The position numbers were made by a program, and so were the translations under genes. Below are positions 7,247 to 11,803 of a stretch of DNA of 12,347 nt, piece by piece. This DNA comes from a virus. Every line of letters begins with the position of its first letter. The first letter of the stretch is position 1. The notes below the pieces were generated by a model. It did no database searches. It saw only the letters and a list, made by a program, of their open reading frames with translations, and had not been told where the DNA came from. The stretch is taken from UHGV virus genome UHGV-0179105, one strand, 5' to 3'.

Positions 7247-7917
7247 GCGATTCGTCCCTCCCAGCTGTTCGGCTGACCTTCGAGGATTTCGATGTCATAG
7301 GCGATCTGTTCGATGACGCTGTCGAGGATGATGCTCTGGCCGGTGCCTTGGCGACCCCAATAGCGCTTGCCGTAGGTATCGATCACGACCTCGCCGTATT
7401 GGCTGAGTTTTTTGCCGAGCCAGTCGGAGACGGCATACCACTCATAGATTGTCGGGACATCGCTCTCCAAATAATCGAAATCATACTCGCCGAAGACTTT
7501 GCCGCAGTTTTTACAGCGCCGGGCGTCATCATACTGGCAGCATTCGCGGGCTTCCTGCAGCGTTTCGTGTTCCTCGCCGCAGATGGGACAAGTATATACC
7601 GGCTCGTCAGAATTCCAATCCTCACCGTGGAAATCGGTTTCATCCGCTTCCATCGGGTCATAATACTCGAAATTGCCAGCCTCACCGCAACTATCGCAAT
7701 CTTTCTCGGTGCCATTGTTAATGGCGTCGTCGTAATCCTCGACAGTAAAAGGGGCGTCTTCATCGTAGCCGATAACCAGAATCGTTTTGATGATGAATTC
7801 GATTTCCTGTGTCATATCACAGTAAACCTCGTTATCAACAAGCTTACTCAGGATACGGTTGTTGGCAGGGGACATCAGGCTGTATTCTTTGCCGTTCACT
7901 TTATAATCGCAGCTCAT
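7243..7917 (-). CDS. acidic multi-CxxC (zinc-ribbon-like) protein, 224 aa
   Basis: Track ORF 7243..7917; ATGA overlap with the upstream gene; motifs CDSCGE, CPICGEEH...ECC and CKNCGK separated by D/E-rich linkers; C-terminal block TYGKRYWGRQGTGQSIILDSVIEQIA. Confidence 0.65.
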   Translation of the reverse strand: MSCDYKVNGKEYSLMSPANNRILSKLVDNEVYCDMTQEIEFIIKTILVIGYDEDAPFTVEDYDDAINNGTEKDCDSCGEAGNFEYYDPMEADETDFHGEDWNSDEPVYTCPICGEEHETLQEARECCQYDDARRCKNCGKVFGEYDFDYLESDVPTIYEWYAVSDWLGKKLSQYGEVVIDTYGKRYWGRQGTGQSIILDSVIEQIAYDIEILEGQPNSWEGRIA

Positions 7918-8561
7918 AAGTATTGTTCGGCCTCACTTTCGTCGATGATGCGATAGTTATTGCCGAAATAGAACGAGAGCATTTCATCTTCCTCATCGGA
8001 GTAGAAGCCGCCGCAGGTATCCTCCAGTGTCCACTCTTTGGTGACTTTATCGTATGGGTAGATGGAGTAGATATAAGCCTCGCCTGTGAGGAACTTGTCA
8101 TAGGTTTCAATTTCGCTTTCGATGATATCCTCGGCGTGCTGCTGCCAGTCGGTATCATTGCCAAAAGCCTCAATGACCTGTTCTTTGGTGCAGATGGCGA
8201 CACCGAAACAGCCGCTATCCCAAGGGTCGTTGAAAGAGCCGGTGCTGATCGTAATGCCGCTGTGAACGTAAGCGTAGAGCGGCACGGAAACAAATTCAGC
8301 TCTGCGGTCTTTAAGTCCGGCAAGGTAATCATCGAGATTGTCACTGTTGGTGAAATCCATATCGTTGTCATACTTGGAGCTGCCGAGGTAGCGATTGCGG
8401 ACATAGCAGATGGTGCAGTAGTTGCAATCATTCTCGCGGGGATTGAGAGGGTCATTATCTCGCTCGGCGGTCACGAAATAAAGCTCTTTGCCGTCTGTGA
8501 CATAAATGCCATCGAGGTCAGTTTCAACGATACGGGTTTCTTTCAATGTCAATGTAGACAT
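7914..8561 (-). CDS. hypothetical acidic protein, 215 aa
   Basis: Track ORF 7914..8561; AAGGAGGTG 6 nt upstream of ATG 8561; motif blocks LYAYVHSGITISTGSFNDPWDSGCFGVAICT; strongly D/E-rich. Confidence 0.7.
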   Translation of the reverse strand: MSTLTLKETRIVETDLDGIYVTDGKELYFVTAERDNDPLNPRENDCNYCTICYVRNRYLGSSKYDNDMDFTNSDNLDDYLAGLKDRRAEFVSVPLYAYVHSGITISTGSFNDPWDSGCFGVAICTKEQVIEAFGNDTDWQQHAEDIIESEIETYDKFLTGEAYIYSIYPYDKVTKEWTLEDTCGGFYSDEEDEMLSFYFGNNYRIIDESEAEQYL

Positions 8562-8564
8562 AGG

Positions 8565-8984
8565 TCACACCTCCTTGTCAGCGTAGTGGTTTTCGATAGC
8601 GGTATCGATCTGGTCATACTCGGGAATATCAGCGTTATAGTGATCGAGGAAATCGTTTGTGATGGCGTCGATGGTTCCATCCTGAGCAGCCGTTTTCAGC
8701 TTTTTCTCAACCTCTTCATCTTTCAGACAGAGTTCATAGGAATAGAAGCTAACGAGATGTTCCTTGACATCCTCGGCCCGGAGTTGTTCCTGAATGGCGT
8801 TATAGACCATAAGACCGATACTGGAATCATCCAGGATGGCATCGATCGCAGCCTTAGCACCGTAGAGCCAGCCGCAGCAGAAGGTCGTGTAGTCGGTGGC
8901 CTGAATCGCTGGTGTGTCTGCTTCCTGCTTGATTTCGTTATACTGCGGCAGATATTTTAAAATCGTTTCCGTTTTGGTTTTCAT
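8565..8984 (-). CDS. hypothetical acidic protein, 139 aa
   Basis: Track ORF 8565..8984; ATGA overlap with the stop of the 434-aa gene; GGAGA 7 nt upstream. Confidence 0.65.
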   Translation of the reverse strand: MKTKTETILKYLPQYNEIKQEADTPAIQATDYTTFCCGWLYGAKAAIDAILDDSSIGLMVYNAIQEQLRAEDVKEHLVSFYSYELCLKDEEVEKKLKTAAQDGTIDAITNDFLDHYNADIPEYDQIDTAIENHYADKEV

Positions 8985-10285
8985 TTCTCATTCTCCATTC
9001 TTTTGATGAGAGTGTCTGCGGCTTCTACAAACTGGTGGCAAATCACATCGGAGCGGCGAACCATCTCGGTTTTGTTGAGCGGGTAGATACCGAACTTTTC
9101 ACGATATTTTTCCTTGCTCTTCTTCCAGTCAAAGGTCATGCGGGAGAAAATCATGCGGTAGACGACGGCGTGTTTGGGAGATTTATCGCCCTTGGCCTCG
9201 GCCAGGCGATTGACGGCATCCAGGATGGCAGCGCTGTTATCGATAATAGAATCCTGTTGAGGATGCGGGGCTTTGAACTCGACAAGGCCGTTCTTGACGA
9301 CAACGCCAGGTTCGTTTGCGGTATCGTTCTTGCGGACACAGTTTACGATGGAGCTGTTGTAGATATTATTGAGGATGCTGTCGAAGATTTCACTCCAGGT
9401 GGTGTTATCCTCAATGATGGTGATGACAGCCGGACTGGTCTGGCGAGGATGGCGGCGGATGTATTCGCGCTTTTCCTGGTCGATGACAAAGCCGTAGTCT
9501 GTGCGCATCTTTTCATAGATAGCGTTGAGGACGGTGGTGTTCTTCTGGTATTTGTCGGGCTGATTCGTTCTGATCTTATCGACCGTGTCATAAACATTGC
9601 GCCGCCATGTACTGGTGACGCCGTGATGCTTAACGGGTTTGGGCTGGGGAGTAGAAGCGGGCTTGCGGGTGGTCTCGGGAATCATATCGGCCTGTGCAGT
9701 GGGATTCGTTTTGAGTTCCACCGGGGCGGAGACGGCGACGGGCTGGGTCTGCATGGTGAGAACGTGGTTGGCGAGAGCAGCAATCGTCTCGGTCAGCCTG
9801 GTCATGTTGGAGGATGTGCTGTTGATGTACTGGGCCATGGTGGTCTGCGATTTCAAAAAGGAATCCATGAGCATCTGCATGGTCTGCGGGGCAAGGGCGG
9901 TCTGCTGGTCAGGCGTGGCAAGGACATTGCGACCGGCGTGCAGAGACTCCATGACATCCCAGACGAAGTCCATGAACTTGTCGGCCTTGGGCTGGCGGGA
10001 GAAACGGCAGATTTCCATAGCACCGCGGAGGGTGTAGACAATCATTTCACGTTCTACCGTTCGTTCTCCTTCAACTTTAACCAATTTGGTTATAGTTGAA
10101 AGAGGATTCAATCTGTCTGCATTGCGGTCGTGAATTTTCTGAATCGCGATGCCTGGATTGCTGTATTCAAGTGCGGTTCCAATCTGTTCGCGAGTCATGT
10201 AAAACTCGTTATTGTCATCGTTATAAACATCGCAGGTCAGGCTGCCGAAGGGCTTCTGGGTGGCGAGTGTAAGAGTAGTGGTCAT
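8981..10285 (-). CDS. Bro-N/antirepressor-like domain protein, 434 aa
   Basis: Track ORF 8981..10285; AAAGGAAA 9 nt upstream of ATG 10285. The N-terminal ~110 aa (FGSLTCDVYNDDNNEFYMTREQIGTALEYSNPGIAIQKIHDRNADRL...EREMIVYTLRGAMEICRFSRQPKADKFMDFVWDVMESL) fit the Bro-N/ORF6N/KilA-N-type pattern of phage antirepressors, from recollection of the family and not an HMM search. The middle is a low-complexity T/P/Q-rich linker; the C-terminal domain is unassigned. Confidence 0.8.
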   Translation of the reverse strand: MTTTLTLATQKPFGSLTCDVYNDDNNEFYMTREQIGTALEYSNPGIAIQKIHDRNADRLNPLSTITKLVKVEGERTVEREMIVYTLRGAMEICRFSRQPKADKFMDFVWDVMESLHAGRNVLATPDQQTALAPQTMQMLMDSFLKSQTTMAQYINSTSSNMTRLTETIAALANHVLTMQTQPVAVSAPVELKTNPTAQADMIPETTRKPASTPQPKPVKHHGVTSTWRRNVYDTVDKIRTNQPDKYQKNTTVLNAIYEKMRTDYGFVIDQEKREYIRRHPRQTSPAVITIIEDNTTWSEIFDSILNNIYNSSIVNCVRKNDTANEPGVVVKNGLVEFKAPHPQQDSIIDNSAAILDAVNRLAEAKGDKSPKHAVVYRMIFSRMTFDWKKSKEKYREKFGIYPLNKTEMVRRSDVICHQFVEAADTLIKRMENEK

Positions 10286-10314: not shown

Positions 10315-10605
10315 TCAGTATTCGTCGGGGAAGAGAACAGTCGTGACGGAGCGATCCCATTCTGTGATGATCCAGATGCGCCAGCCGGGGTGGTCGGCTG
10401 GTTCGTAAGCGGAAAAGATACGGTCATCGCCGGTGCGGACAGCTTCATCATTCCGATTCTTATCACTGTCGCAAAGGTCGCCCCAGTCACAGGCTTCGTG
10501 GCGGGCCACGCAGGTGAGGACGAACACTGCAAACTGGCTGTCTCGTGTCATTTTGTCATGCACACCCCGTGTGATTACGAGCGTGCCGAGTTCAAACTGT
10601 TTCAT
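10315..10605 (-). CDS. hypothetical protein, 96 aa
   Basis: Track ORF 10315..10605; AAAGGAG 7 nt upstream of ATG 10605; ATGA overlap with the upstream gene; C-terminal block WRIWIITEWDRSVTTVLFPDEY looks conserved. Confidence 0.65.
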   Translation of the reverse strand: MKQFELGTLVITRGVHDKMTRDSQFAVFVLTCVARHEACDWGDLCDSDKNRNDEAVRTGDDRIFSAYEPADHPGWRIWIITEWDRSVTTVLFPDEY

Positions 10606-10763
10606 GCGGAGACTCCTTTCGTGTTGTTCTGAAAGAATTCATCTTCAGAGCAGAAGGGGCAGAACCAGCCGCCGTTGAAAAGAAAAGAGCCTTTGGTATC
10701 GGGCAGGCACTCATAGCAGACAGTGCCGTCGATGAAGGCGAGTGTGTAGGTAAACATTTTCAT
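10602..10763 (-). CDS. small Cys4 (zinc-ribbon-like) protein, 53 aa
   Basis: The C-terminal part of track ORF 10602..11027 is in this frame; start ATG 10763 (MKMFTYTLAFIDGTVCYECLPDTKGSFLFNGGWFCPFCSEDEFFQNNTKGVSA) has GGGAGGG 8 nt upstream; C-x2-C...C-x2-C. Confidence 0.5.
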   Translation of the reverse strand: MKMFTYTLAFIDGTVCYECLPDTKGSFLFNGGWFCPFCSEDEFFQNNTKGVSA

Positions 10764-11387: not shown

Positions 11388-11426
11388 GGGTTCCGGGACA
11401 TTGCCGGACGCTCCGAGCGTGAACCC
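11388..11426. other. nested inverted repeats (compound stem-loop)
   Basis: GGGTT (11388-11392) pairs with AACCC (11422-11426), enclosing CCGG-GACATTG-CCGG (11393-11407) and ACGC-TCCGA-GCGT (11408-11420); read by eye, no folding energy computed. Confidence 0.4.
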
Positions 11427-11432
11427 GAAGCG

Positions 11433-11460
11433 CCGGTCAAAAGAAAGGAAGATGACCAGA
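11433..11460. repeat. imperfect direct repeat, copy 1 (CCGGTCAAAAGAAAGGAAGATGACCAGA)
   Basis: Pairs with 11504-11528; shared core CCGGTCAA..GAAAGGAAGA..CCAGA with small indels; inside the GC-rich noncoding island. Confidence 0.7.
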
Positions 11461-11503
11461 TGGACATGGAATCACCACAAACCATGCCCGGTGGTCGGAC
11501 GAA

Positions 11504-11562: not shown

Positions 11563-11697
11563 CTAAACGTACTCCTCACGGATGGAGAGCAATTCATTCC
11601 AGGCTTCGCGAATGGTGTCAGCAGAGCAGAGGAAGGTGTTGCCGTAGAAGATTTCGTAATGGCCGCTTTCGCCGCCGATGTGTTTAAGGTGGAACAT
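11563..11697 (-). CDS. hypothetical small protein, 44 aa (alternative start 11745 gives 60 aa)
   Basis: Track ORF 11563..11745; ATG 11745 has no SD and a hairpin immediately upstream; in-frame ATG 11697 (MFHLKHIGGESG...) follows AAGGAGG with a 4-5 nt spacer. An antisense plus-strand ORF (11386..11724) overlaps, so the coding call is uncertain. Confidence 0.4.
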   Translation of the reverse strand: MFHLKHIGGESGHYEIFYGNTFLCSADTIREAWNELLSIREEYV

Positions 11698-11716
11698 GAA
11701 GCCTCCTTGTTTATTA

Positions 11717-11741
11717 ACTGTTGAATTGTGTACTCTATAAT
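11717..11741. repeat. 25-bp direct repeat, copy A (ACTGTTGAATTGTGTACTCTATAAT)
   Basis: Matches copy B at 23 of 25 positions by direct reading; lies between the hairpin and the RBS of the 11697 start. Confidence 0.8.
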
Positions 11742-11748
11742 TCATGAA

Positions 11749-11776
11749 GTAAAACCGGATGGGCGTCCGGCTTTAC
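11749..11776 (-). terminator. hairpin (terminator- or attenuator-like) between the direct repeats
   Basis: Minus-strand RNA GUAAAGCCGGA-CGCCCA-UCCGGUUUUAC forms an 11-bp stem including one G-U wobble; the same position is an A-C mismatch on the plus-strand transcript, which argues for function on the minus strand. The U-run is only 4 nt and partly inside the stem, so terminator strength is doubtful. Confidence 0.3.
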
Positions 11777-11778
11777 TT

Positions 11779-11803
11779 ACTGTTGAATTGTGTATTCTAC
11801 AAT
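11779..11803. repeat. 25-bp direct repeat, copy B (ACTGTTGAATTGTGTATTCTACAAT)
   Basis: Matches copy A at 23 of 25 positions; overlaps the -10 element of the candidate minus-strand promoter. Confidence 0.8.

What the first reader, a model, noticed from the sequence alone, without database searches (positions are those of the whole stretch)
8981..10285. Large Bro-N/antirepressor-like protein embedded in the small-gene array
The N-terminal ~110 residues fit the Bro-N/ORF6N-type pattern (aromatic-rich start, then EYSNPGIAIQKIHDRNADRL and a downstream QPKADKFMDFVWDVMESL-like block). It is followed by a T/P/Q-rich low-complexity linker and an unassigned C-terminal domain of about 200 aa. Bro-N proteins in phages act as antirepressors or DNA-binding regulators. 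This is the only protein here I can place in a known family, and that placement is from memory, not a search.
Basis: partly seen in the sequence, partly recalled or inferred. Interest (0 to 1): 0.45.

Follow-up and report, generated by a model that had tools for sequence, protein, structure and literature searches.

The report
Bro-N phage regulator with swappable cassette

Summary
Window 8981-10285 (minus strand) is a 434-aa ORF under purifying selection. Residues 18-108 match Pfam Bro-N above the curated cut-off (31.5 vs 25.6 bits).

A low-confidence helical stretch and a P/T/Q-rich linker follow. The remaining ~210 aa match no Pfam or PHROG family.

- **C-terminal half.** It is a confidently predicted (pLDDT 90) tandem duplication of a five-helix unit (hhalign 97%). 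In other proteins this module follows Bro-N, P22_AR_N, ORF6N or Rha N-domains. It therefore behaves as an interchangeable, uncatalogued C-module of the antirepressor-like class.
- **Swapped cassette.** Residues 40-85 of the Bro-N domain move between lineages. They are 98% nt-identical to a lineage that is only 44-79% identical elsewhere, yet undetectably similar in close relatives.
- **Embedded hairpin.** The cassette contains a 13-17 bp palindrome (10066-10104) kept by compensatory changes across about ten alleles. It is also present in Bro-N genes of Clostridioides phage pCD1602_4 and a Paenibacillus plasmid.

The strict "antirepressor" function is not shown: no repressor or integrase gene is seen in the window. 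The best reading is a modular DNA-targeting early regulator of a ~140-150 kb phage, probably of Lachnospiraceae.

The parts
8981..10285 (-). Whole gene, 434 aa plus stop. The order is Bro-N domain, conserved motif with predicted helices, P/T/Q linker, five-helix repeat A, variable loop, five-helix repeat B.
   Evidence: ORF list. 1294 homologues, full length down to 41% identity. dN/dS 0.19. Identical gene in a second assembly.
9932..10285 (-). Bro-N domain, aa 1-118. The Pfam match covers aa 18-108, which is 9962-10234.
   Evidence: PF02498, 31.5 bits against a cut-off of 25.6, E 2.9e-7. AF2 alpha/beta model with pLDDT about 80-90: strands 6-13, 16-22, 28-31, 63-72, 75-85; helices 32-38, 44-54, 56-62, 86-95, 101-116.
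10031..10168 (-). Exchangeable cassette, aa 40-85 (two helices plus a beta-hairpin of the Bro-N domain). It is flanked by segments conserved across the whole family.
   Evidence: 98% nt and 98% third-position identity to L059, whose flanks are 77-79% and whose C-terminal half is 44-58% identical. No detectable nt similarity in close relatives whose flanks are 91-97% identical. Segment identity table. Second case, L006/L018.
10066..10104 (-). Imperfect palindrome / hairpin (17 bp stem, 3-nt loop) inside the cassette. It lies over the codons for aa 61-74 and is centred on K67/L68.
   Evidence: dG -21.3 kcal/mol, z -4.66, 0 of 200 shuffles as stable. Second strongest 45-nt hairpin in the window. 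Covariation: 82.9% of cells paired against 63% in shuffles, 53 double-sided changes against 18.9, both 0/500; slid controls 30-53%. RNAalifold finds the same stem. Present in other alleles and in outside Bro-N genes.
9758..9931 (-). aa 119-176. An almost invariant motif, VLATPDQQTA (aa 121-130), is followed by two predicted helices (133-153 and 159-180, the second running 4 aa into the linker). This may be an oligomerisation or partner-binding region.
   Evidence: Invariant columns V121, A123, P125, D126, Q127, A130, T135, D141, K145, Q147. pLDDT below 50 but helical. phrog_5060 match extends to aa 175.
9620..9757 (-). P/T/A/Q-rich flexible linker, aa 177-222.
   Evidence: Composition. pLDDT 26-40. 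Variable in length and sequence across the family. This stretch explains the local GC peak of 0.57.
9320..9619 (-). C-module repeat A, aa 223-322: a five-helix unit with motif W..xY...VL..IY..M...YG.V..QE.K.Y...I..I....IF..IL.D.
   Evidence: AF2 model of aa 215-434 with pLDDT about 97. Conserved columns. dN/dS 0.055.
9236..9319 (-). Variable inter-repeat loop, aa 323-350, with a predicted small beta-hairpin.
   Evidence: pLDDT below 50. Large indels among homologues.
8984..9235 (-). C-module repeat B, aa 351-434: a five-helix unit homologous to repeat A, with net charge about +6.
   Evidence: hhalign of the repeat A profile against the repeat B profile: probability 97.4%, E 1.3e-11, 83 columns. 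pLDDT about 97. Composition.
8565..8984 (-). Downstream 139-aa gene. Its ATG overlaps the Bro-N stop codon (ATGA), so translational coupling is likely. No family is assigned.
   Evidence: Sequence at the junction. Found in 18 of 47 related loci. No Pfam or PHROG hit.
7914..8561 (-). Conserved downstream neighbour, 215 aa (phrog_6186, function unknown).
   Evidence: Present in 43 of 47 related loci. PHROG hit. Relatives occur in 130-176 kb phages.
10602..10763 (-). Conserved upstream neighbour, 53 aa, with a CxxC...CxxC pattern that looks like a zinc ribbon.
   Evidence: Present in 47 of 47 related loci. Sequence from the ORF list. Gene call in the source contig.

Best explanation
This is a modular regulatory protein of a large (~140-150 kb) tailed phage, probably one infecting Lachnospiraceae. 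It is expressed from a long co-directional operon of small early-type genes.

Proposed mechanism:
- **Shown.** The protein has an N-terminal Bro-N domain, and a P/T/Q-rich linker ties it to a C-terminal module made of two homologous five-helix units.
- **Inferred from the family.** The Bro-N domain targets the protein to nucleic acid or to a specific partner. Its central two helices plus beta-hairpin (aa 40-85) act as the specificity element.
- **Inferred.** The invariant motif LATPDQQTA and the two helices after the domain mediate self-association or binding of a conserved partner.
- **Inferred.** The C-terminal module has no conserved catalytic residues, so it most likely acts as a binding or effector domain towards a protein. 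This parallels KilAC in AriS-type regulators.

The specificity element is exchanged between phage lineages as a 126-150-nt cassette, using the highly conserved flanks as homology arms. A selected hairpin/palindrome sits in the middle of that cassette. Whether the hairpin acts as DNA or as RNA is not known.
For: **Family and structure**
- Bro-N passes Pfam's threshold, and does so in 44 of 44 relatives.
- The Bro-N part of the full-length model is confident.
- The C-module model has pLDDT 90.2 and shows two five-helix units. The two units are homologous (hhalign 97.4%).

**The C-module is interchangeable**
- Its relatives carry Bro-N (22), P22_AR_N (21), ORF6N (7) or Rha (1) at the N-terminus.
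- The best viral fold hits are C-terminal parts of proteins named 'Antirepressor', 'Regulatory protein' and 'KilA-N domain'.
- The AriS paper documents the same N/C modular logic, with the C-domain as effector (PMC9043618).
- Only hydrophobic or aromatic columns are near-invariant in the C-module.

**Bro-N as a DNA-binding domain.** Papers treat Bro-N as a DNA-binding superfamily and report BRO proteins as DNA-binding (PMC3230853).

**The gene is functional.** dN/dS is 0.19 overall.

**Cassette exchange**.

**Hairpin covariation**.

**Operon context**
- ATGA overlap with the next gene, and a conserved gene order.
- Relatives sit on 90-150 kb viral contigs.
- One relative sits on a 141.6 kb contig binned with a Lachnospiraceae MAG.
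Against: - No binding activity, target or partner is shown.
- No solved Bro-N relative was found by sequence, so naming aa 40-85 the recognition surface is inference from the model and from the variability pattern.
- The helical middle region has pLDDT below 50.
- The early-operon reading is inferred from gene size and orientation. Promoter and terminator scans were uninformative.
- The phage lifestyle is unknown.
Confidence: 0.5

Rival explanations
1. Classical antirepressor. The protein binds the phage's own, or a co-resident prophage's, lysogeny repressor and inactivates it, triggering or locking in lytic growth. The variable cassette or the C-module would provide repressor specificity.
For: - Six PHROG families annotated 'anti-repressor' match the N-terminal part.
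- Sources name relatives 'prophage antirepressor-like protein'.
- The C-module is also found behind P22_AR_N, the N-domain of the P22 antirepressor family.
- Bro-N/ORF6C and P22AR_C proteins on plasmids sit directly beside HTH or Arc repressor genes and AimR.
- Allelic exchange of a specificity element fits immunity-type arms races.
Against: - No HTH, Arc, cI-like or integrase family was detected among about 20 neighbouring proteins in the window.
- The host elements are ~140-150 kb phage contigs with tRNA arrays and long arrays of small genes.
- The conserved 215-aa neighbour is shared with large 130-176 kb phages.
- Only one hit was found in representative bacterial genomes, on a phage-sized contig and not flanked by chromosome.
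- The annotations are names only, not tested functions.
Confidence: 0.22
2. Site-specific DNA-binding protein whose recognition site lies inside its own gene, as with lambda O protein and ori-lambda (from my own knowledge). It could be an autoregulatory operator or a replication/recombination site. The palindrome at 10066-10104 would be bound by a dimer of the Bro-N domain. Because the site lies within the segment encoding the recognition element, protein specificity and site move together as one cassette.
For: - The palindrome is conserved by compensatory change, including at synonymous third positions.
- It always lies inside the exchanged cassette.
- Its stem sequence differs between alleles while its position and its CA-NNN-TG centre stay fixed.
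- Bro-N is regarded as a DNA-binding domain.
- The element extends to Bro-N genes of other phyla and of sequenced isolates.
Against: - There is only one copy per gene.
- No additional half-sites beyond chance occur in the 12 kb window.
- G-U pairs on the sense strand outnumber A-C mismatches (about 15 against 7 cells), which leans slightly towards an RNA hairpin.
- Two distant lineages (L053, L055) and L050 lack the hairpin.
- There is no binding data.
Confidence: 0.13
3. Anti-defence or exclusion factor. The protein could be an early protein that neutralises a host defence component. Alternatively, like the KilA-N protein BstA, it could sense and abort competing phages. The cassette would diversify under an arms race.
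For: - The gene sits in a long array of small early-type genes of unknown function.
- The neighbourhoods of distant relatives hold a ThiF-reverse transcriptase block, a STAND-like ATPase, HNH and a Lar-like protein.
- The KilA-N protein BstA is a defence protein (PMC8585504, listed).
- The cassette turns over quickly.
Against: - No hit was obtained in any library beyond the Bro-N and antirepressor families. The PADLOC library was not searched.
- The gene is a conserved core gene of the phage group (47 of 47 loci, with conserved neighbours), not a variable island gene.
- No toxin or enzyme domain is present.
Confidence: 0.1

Closest known systems
Bro-N family proteins (Pfam PF02498): baculovirus BRO proteins and phage/prophage 'BRO family' or 'antirepressor' proteins
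   Same: The N-terminal ~110 aa match the family model above threshold. The overall layout of an N-terminal Bro-N domain plus a variable C-terminal region is the pattern described for this class by Iyer, Koonin and Aravind (2002), as summarised in PMC9043618.
   Different: - The C-terminal half is none of the catalogued partners (KilAC/ANT, ORF6C, P22_AR_C, T5orf172). No such model hits any of 129 scanned relatives.
- A recombining internal cassette with an embedded covarying hairpin was not found described in the papers searched.
AriS-type two-domain regulators (AntA/AntB, Bro-N or pRha N-domain plus ANT/KilAC C-domain; Listeria phi10403S, phi11 Gp07)
   Same: The logic is the same: one C-terminal module is combined with alternating N-terminal domains from the same small set. 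Here the set is Bro-N, P22_AR_N, ORF6N and Rha; there it is AntA/B, Bro-N and pRha.
   Different: - The C-module here is not KilAC (no PF03374 hit).
- It is a tandem duplication of a five-helix unit.
- AriS's SOS-inhibiting activity cannot be transferred to it.
- The protein here is about 170 aa longer and has a long disordered linker.
P22 Ant and plasmid/phage P22AR- or ORF6C-type antirepressors located in immunity regions
   Same: They share N-terminal domain classes with relatives of the C-module (P22_AR_N, ORF6N) and carry the same source annotations.
   Different: - Those genes lie next to Arc/Mnt or HTH repressors; no such neighbour is seen here.
- Profile comparison of the C-module with an ORF6C protein gave probability 1.2%, and with a P22AR_C protein 0.3%.
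Lambda O protein / ori-lambda arrangement (cis site inside the gene for its own binding protein; type-specific N-terminal part). Cited from my own knowledge.
   Same: A dyad-symmetric DNA element lies inside the part of the gene that encodes the variable, presumably DNA-recognising, segment. Protein segment and site are inherited together.
   Different: - There is no sequence or fold relation.
- There is a single palindrome rather than four iterons plus an AT-rich region.
- No evidence links this protein to replication.

Membership tests
Bro-N (PF02498) | Match to the family HMM at or above Pfam's gathering score | tested here: met
   31.5 bits against 25.6, E 2.9e-7, aa 18-108 covering profile positions 2-90 of 96. 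All 44 aligned homologues also match.
Bro-N (PF02498) | Compact alpha/beta N-terminal domain | tested here: inconclusive
   AF2 predicts a confident alpha/beta domain (pLDDT 80-90). No solved Bro-N relative was found by sequence for comparison. Foldseek of the full-length model against the PDB gave nothing.
Bro-N (PF02498) | Nucleic-acid binding by the N-terminal domain | not testable with these tools
   This is reported for the family only in the literature.
ORF6N (PF10543) / KilA-N (PF04383) | Match to the family HMM | tested here: not met
   Only Bro-N is reported at E up to 1 for this protein, and for its 44 relatives at E up to 0.1.
Phage antirepressor (functional class) | Binds and inactivates a phage repressor | not testable with these tools
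   Only name-level annotations exist.
Phage antirepressor (functional class) | Located in an immunity or regulatory region next to repressor genes (Arc/Mnt, cI/Cro-type HTH) | tested here: not met
   No HTH or Arc family was found among 20 neighbouring proteins scanned against Pfam, or among 9 scanned against PHROGs. Contrast, where classical examples do have such neighbours. The window covers only 2 kb upstream.
Phage antirepressor (functional class) | Carried by a temperate element (integrase, repressor, prophage state) | tested here: inconclusive
   Relatives sit on phage-sized contigs of 90-150 kb. One hit in a MAG is a 141.6 kb stand-alone contig. Contigs of 233 and 366 kb exist but could not be read beyond 10 kb either side of the gene.
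Known C-terminal partner domains: ANT/KilAC PF03374, ORF6C PF10552, P22_AR_C PF10548, ORF11CD3 PF10549 | Match of the C-terminal half to the family HMM or profile | tested here: not met
   No such family was hit in the protein, in 87 distant relatives or in 42 trimmed C-modules at E up to 1. hhalign against one ORF6C protein gave probability 1.2% and against one P22AR_C protein 0.3%. A full profile-profile search against Pfam was not possible.
Diversity-generating retroelement target (considered for the variable cassette) | A template repeat near a reverse transcriptase, matching the variable region and differing from it at adenines only | tested here: not met
   No repeat matching the cassette was found in three loci that carry an RT. 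Alleles differ by indels and at all base types. Close relatives without an RT within 10 kb still have the cassette and hairpin.
Rfam RNA families (considered for the hairpin) | Covariance-model match | tested here: not met
   No match at E up to 1 anywhere in the window.

The most novel reading that the evidence does not exclude
The Bro-N gene carries a portable 'protein plus site' specificity module. The 126-150-nt cassette would encode the recognition helices and beta-hairpin of the Bro-N domain, and would at the same time contain the palindromic site (or RNA hairpin) that this same domain recognises. Swapping the cassette between phages would then switch regulator specificity and its cis target in one step. 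The element is conserved in Bro-N genes of Clostridia, Peptococcaceae, Bacteroidota, a C. difficile phage-like element and a Paenibacillus plasmid. If the reading is right, it would be a general and so far undescribed property of this widespread viral domain.
Probability: 0.13. Interest if true: 0.8.

Novelty: new variant of a known kind. Interest (0 to 1): 0.5.

Why it matters
Bro-N is one of the commonest domains in DNA viruses, yet it has almost no mechanistic characterisation. Three results bear on that.

- **A new domain family.** The C-module is a well-folded, duplicated domain that combines with four different antirepressor-type N-domains. Pfam and PHROGs lack it. Defining it would improve annotation of many gut-phage proteins and points to a shared effector function.
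- **Where specificity may lie.** The cassette exchange marks which part of Bro-N is under diversifying or exchange pressure. That is a direct pointer to the specificity surface.
- **A testable element.** The hairpin covaries even at synonymous sites inside that cassette, which is unexpected. It also occurs in a Paenibacillus plasmid from a cultured strain and in a sequenced C. difficile phage-like element, so it can be tested at the bench.

If none of this holds up, the gene is still simply a correctly identified Bro-N family regulator, which is ordinary.

Tried and rejected
**Searches that found nothing useful**
- Nucleotide search of the whole window against GenBank phages: no match.
- tblastn against phages and plasmids: only the Bro-N part matches, 21-36% coverage.
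- PDB sequence searches with the protein and with the full-length profile: nothing.
- Foldseek of the full-length model against the PDB: E at least 0.45, meaningless.
- The AFDB50 library was unavailable.
- NCBIfam: only noise.
- Profile search of the 5.8-billion-protein set with the C-module alignment: only near relatives, no names.
- Cluster look-up of 10 distant relatives: no source names.
- Promoter and terminator scan: near shuffle expectation.
- No tRNA genes and no Rfam hits in the window.

**Leads rejected**
- Pairwise BLAST of repeat A against repeat B found nothing. Only the profile comparison shows the duplication.
- A DGR origin for the cassette was rejected.
- L045 and L046 looked like a 'different C-terminus' architecture. 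They are contig-end truncations with translated sequencing-adapter sequence. L047 is a deletion variant.

**Hairpin follow-ups that led nowhere**
- Extra copies of the palindrome half-site in the window: not above chance.
- Exact palindrome searches in IMG/VR: 0 hits.
- A 14-mer scan was too unspecific to be useful.

**Literature**
- The Iyer et al. 2002 paper is not held in the library.
Full report
**1. The observation**

The window is an entire 12,347-bp metagenomic contig, ENA ERZ1034818 NODE_385, reversed. All plausible genes, about 30 of them and mostly under 150 aa, lie on the minus strand.

The feature is an ORF from 10285 down to 8981, 434 aa, the largest gene in the window. It starts at an ATG preceded by AGGAA at a 10-nt spacing. 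It ends in an ATGA overlap with the next gene.

The gene is real and functional:
- 1294 homologues were found.
- An identical copy occurs in an independent assembly.
- Mean dN/dS is 0.19 against 14 close relatives.

**2. The family placement**

Pfam Bro-N (PF02498) matches aa 18-108 at 31.5 bits, above the gathering score of 25.6, with E 2.9e-7. All 44 aligned relatives also match. Six PHROG families named 'anti-repressor' match the N-terminal 110-175 aa only. ORF6N and KilA-N do not match.

Two other window proteins do fall into Pfam families: GP88 at 1513-2172 and the DUF5052 lipoprotein at 2523-3152. The claim that this is 'the only protein I can place' is slightly too strong.

**3. Anatomy**

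AlphaFold2 on a 44-sequence alignment gives:
- a confident alpha/beta Bro-N domain, aa 1-118, pLDDT 80-90;
- a low-confidence stretch, aa 119-211, with two predicted helices (133-153 and 159-180);
- a P/T/A/Q-rich linker, aa 177-222 (composition);
- a helical C-terminal half.

Residues 86-147 are nearly invariant across a family that is otherwise only about 41% identical. This stretch includes the motif VLATPDQQTA just after the domain.

**4. The C-terminal half**

It has no match in Pfam, PHROGs, NCBIfam or PDB sequences.

*Relatives.* A full phmmer scan of 1.84 billion representative proteins, using aa 215-434 alone as query, found 93 relatives. In them the module is always C-terminal. Scanning 86 of these proteins against Pfam showed four different N-terminal domains in front of it: Bro-N (22), P22_AR_N (21), ORF6N (7) and Phage_pRha (1). 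No Pfam family covered the module itself. No Pfam or PHROG family recurs in 42 trimmed modules, even at E up to 1.

*Structure.* A trimmed alignment (A3) gave a very confident model, mean pLDDT 90.2 and about 97 within the domains. It has two five-helix units of the same helix-length pattern joined by a variable loop.

*Duplication.* Profile-profile comparison of unit A with unit B gives probability 97.4%, E 1.3e-11 over 83 columns. Plain BLAST does not see this. The module is therefore an internal tandem duplication.

*Known partner domains.* Comparison with an ORF6C protein and a P22AR_C protein shows no relation.

*Residues.* Only hydrophobic or aromatic positions are near-invariant. This argues for a binding domain rather than an enzyme.

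This is the same combinatorial logic shown experimentally for AriS-like regulators. There a KilAC effector domain is combined with AntA/B, Bro-N or pRha N-domains (PMC9043618). The C-module here is a different and uncatalogued one.

**5. Genomic setting**

- Relatives lie on IMG/VR viral contigs. Many are 139-152 kb within an overall range of about 90-150 kb, with a few shorter fragments and one of 233 kb.
- The one full-length hit among representative bacterial genomes is a 141.6-kb stand-alone contig binned with a Lachnospiraceae MAG.
- The gene is a core gene of this group. Its neighbours of 53 aa (47 of 47 loci), 215 aa (43), 60 aa (40) and 224 aa (34) are conserved.
- The 215-aa neighbour has relatives in large 130-176 kb phages.
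- No repressor-type, Arc-type or integrase family was found among the window's proteins. Classical Bro-N/ORF6C and P22AR_C proteins on plasmids, in contrast, sit beside HTH or Arc repressors.

The strict antirepressor function is therefore unsupported, though not excluded.

**6. An exchanged cassette inside the Bro-N domain**

Segment-wise identities show strong mosaicism. Residues 40-85 are 96% identical to P0061 and P0065, which are only 25-51% identical in the C-module. Relatives that are 97-98% identical in repeat A are only 43-50% identical in this segment.

At nucleotide level:
- The 138-nt cassette is 98% identical, and 98% at third codon positions, to L059. L059's flanking segments are 77-79% identical and its C-terminal half 44-58%.
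- In close relatives whose flanks are 91-97% identical, the cassette has no detectable nucleotide similarity.
- A second, independent pair (L006 and L018) shows the same pattern: 96% in the cassette against 79-80% in the flanks and 40-59% in the C-terminal half.

In the model the cassette is two helices plus the beta-hairpin. I infer that it is the specificity-determining part, exchanged by homologous recombination through the conserved flanks.

**7. A conserved hairpin in the cassette**

*In the window.* Positions 10066-10104 form an imperfect palindrome: a 17-bp stem with dG -21.3 kcal/mol and z -4.66. It is the second most stable 45-nt hairpin in the window.

*In other alleles.* Other cassette alleles, with unrelated stem sequences, have a hairpin in exactly the same register after the conserved NPLS codons.

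*Covariation.* The test used an ungapped 18-allele alignment.

| Measure | Observed | Shuffled | Shuffles reaching observed |
|---|---|---|---|
| Cells that form a pair | 82.9% | 63.0% | 0/500 |
| Cells with change on both sides | 53 | 18.9 | 0/500 |

Ten of 13 pairs show compensatory changes. Sliding the partner columns drops pairing to 30-53%. RNAalifold predicts the same stem independently.

*Not explained at the protein level.* Pairs that join two third-codon positions (columns 15/33 and 18/30) covary. The symmetry centre lies in the middle of a predicted beta-strand (K67/L68), not at the turn.

*Beyond this family.*
- The hairpin is present in Bro-N genes of a Clostridia MAG, a Peptococcaceae MAG and one of two Bacteroidota MAGs.
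- It is also present in Clostridioides phage pCD1602_4 and in a Paenibacillus cellulosilyticus plasmid BRO gene.
- It is absent from the other Bacteroidota MAG (L050) and from the two most distant lineages (L053, L055).

*Other checks.* There is no Rfam match. No extra half-sites beyond chance occur in the window. G-U pairs on the sense strand outnumber A-C mismatches about 2 to 1. This gives a slight lean towards an RNA hairpin, but is not decisive.

A DGR origin is rejected. No template repeat was found and the alleles differ by indels.

The role of the hairpin is unexplained. The candidates are:
- a cis site for the protein itself, co-transferred with its recognition element;
- an mRNA element;
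- a recombination-promoting structure.

**8. Verdict**

The finding is correct, and at face value ordinary: a Bro-N family phage regulator. Beyond that, the gene is a new variant of the kind in two respects: an uncatalogued duplicated C-module, and a recombining specificity cassette with an embedded, covarying hairpin.

The best-supported mechanism is a modular DNA- or partner-targeting regulator whose C-module is a binding effector (confidence about 0.5). Rivals:
- a classical antirepressor, about 0.22;
- a self-site-binding protein, about 0.13;
- an anti-defence or exclusion factor, about 0.1.

Noticed in passing
L048:2016-6406; L053:2900-7244; L055:3002-7381; L059:651-4916: In four more distant lineages of this phage group, a conserved four-gene block lies 0.6-3.4 kb upstream of the Bro-N/C-module gene. 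The block is a ~450-aa protein, a ~205-254-aa protein, a ThiF-family E1-like protein (227 aa) and an RVT_1 reverse transcriptase (394-478 aa). It is absent within 10 kb upstream in the close relative L001. The window ends 2 kb upstream of the gene, so its presence here is unknown. No DGR-like template repeat was found.
   Followed up: partly
L048:4874-4921, 6476-6523, 9533-9580; L053:7288-7328, 7712-7752: A repeated ~45-nt intergenic element, a short hairpin followed by GAATTTG(T/C)TAC, flanks the reverse-transcriptase gene and precedes the Bro-N gene in distant relatives. It may be a phage-specific promoter or regulatory cassette. It is not present above chance in the window.
   Followed up: partly
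window 11701-11803: Two copies of a 41-nt repeat (80% identical, 62 nt apart) lie in the 156-nt gap upstream of the conserved 60-aa gene (11563-11745). They overlap consensus-like promoter hexamers. A strong hairpin lies at 11742-11786. This may be an operator or promoter region of the array.
   Followed up: no
window 11400-11444 and 11454-11498: The most stable local hairpin of the window (GC-rich, -25.2 kcal/mol) and a second one (-19.0) lie in a stretch with no convincing gene between 11366 and 11562.
   Followed up: no
window 10602-10763 (-): A 53-aa protein with a CxxC...CxxC pattern that looks like a zinc ribbon is conserved in all 47 related loci, two genes upstream of the Bro-N gene. 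It is more conserved in presence than any other neighbour.
   Followed up: no
window 1513-2172 (-) and 2523-3152 (-): A cysteine-rich GP88-family protein (PF17338, E 6e-16) and a DUF5052 lipoprotein with a signal peptide and lipobox (PF16475, E 3.5e-65) lie in the same array. A phage-encoded lipoprotein may act in superinfection exclusion.
   Followed up: no
L053:9617-14524: Relatives carry a tRNA gene array (at least five tRNA-like 62-nt repeats) directly downstream of the Bro-N/C-module gene. This fits a large phage genome. The window itself has no tRNA genes.
   Followed up: no
L048:8155-9303 and 13235-14670: A family of small paralogous genes (repeated GD.V.IR.WDDM... coding motif with conserved upstream sequence ...GATGAT.T..TGAAAGGAG) is scattered on both sides of the Bro-N gene in this relative. 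This resembles modular shuffling of small early genes.
   Followed up: no
L047:10001-10660; L045:9842-10633: L047 carries a 219-aa deletion variant: Bro-N fused directly to repeat A and then to the tail of the 139-aa downstream gene. L045 and L046 are truncated at contig ends, with translated sequencing-adapter sequence (VSYTHLTLPTT / MCIRDR). They are not alternative architectures.
   Followed up: yes
window 8984-9235 (-): Among otherwise close relatives, repeat B exists in two nucleotide versions, 96-97% and 81-85% identical to the window. The C-terminal end of the gene is therefore also mosaic.
   Followed up: no
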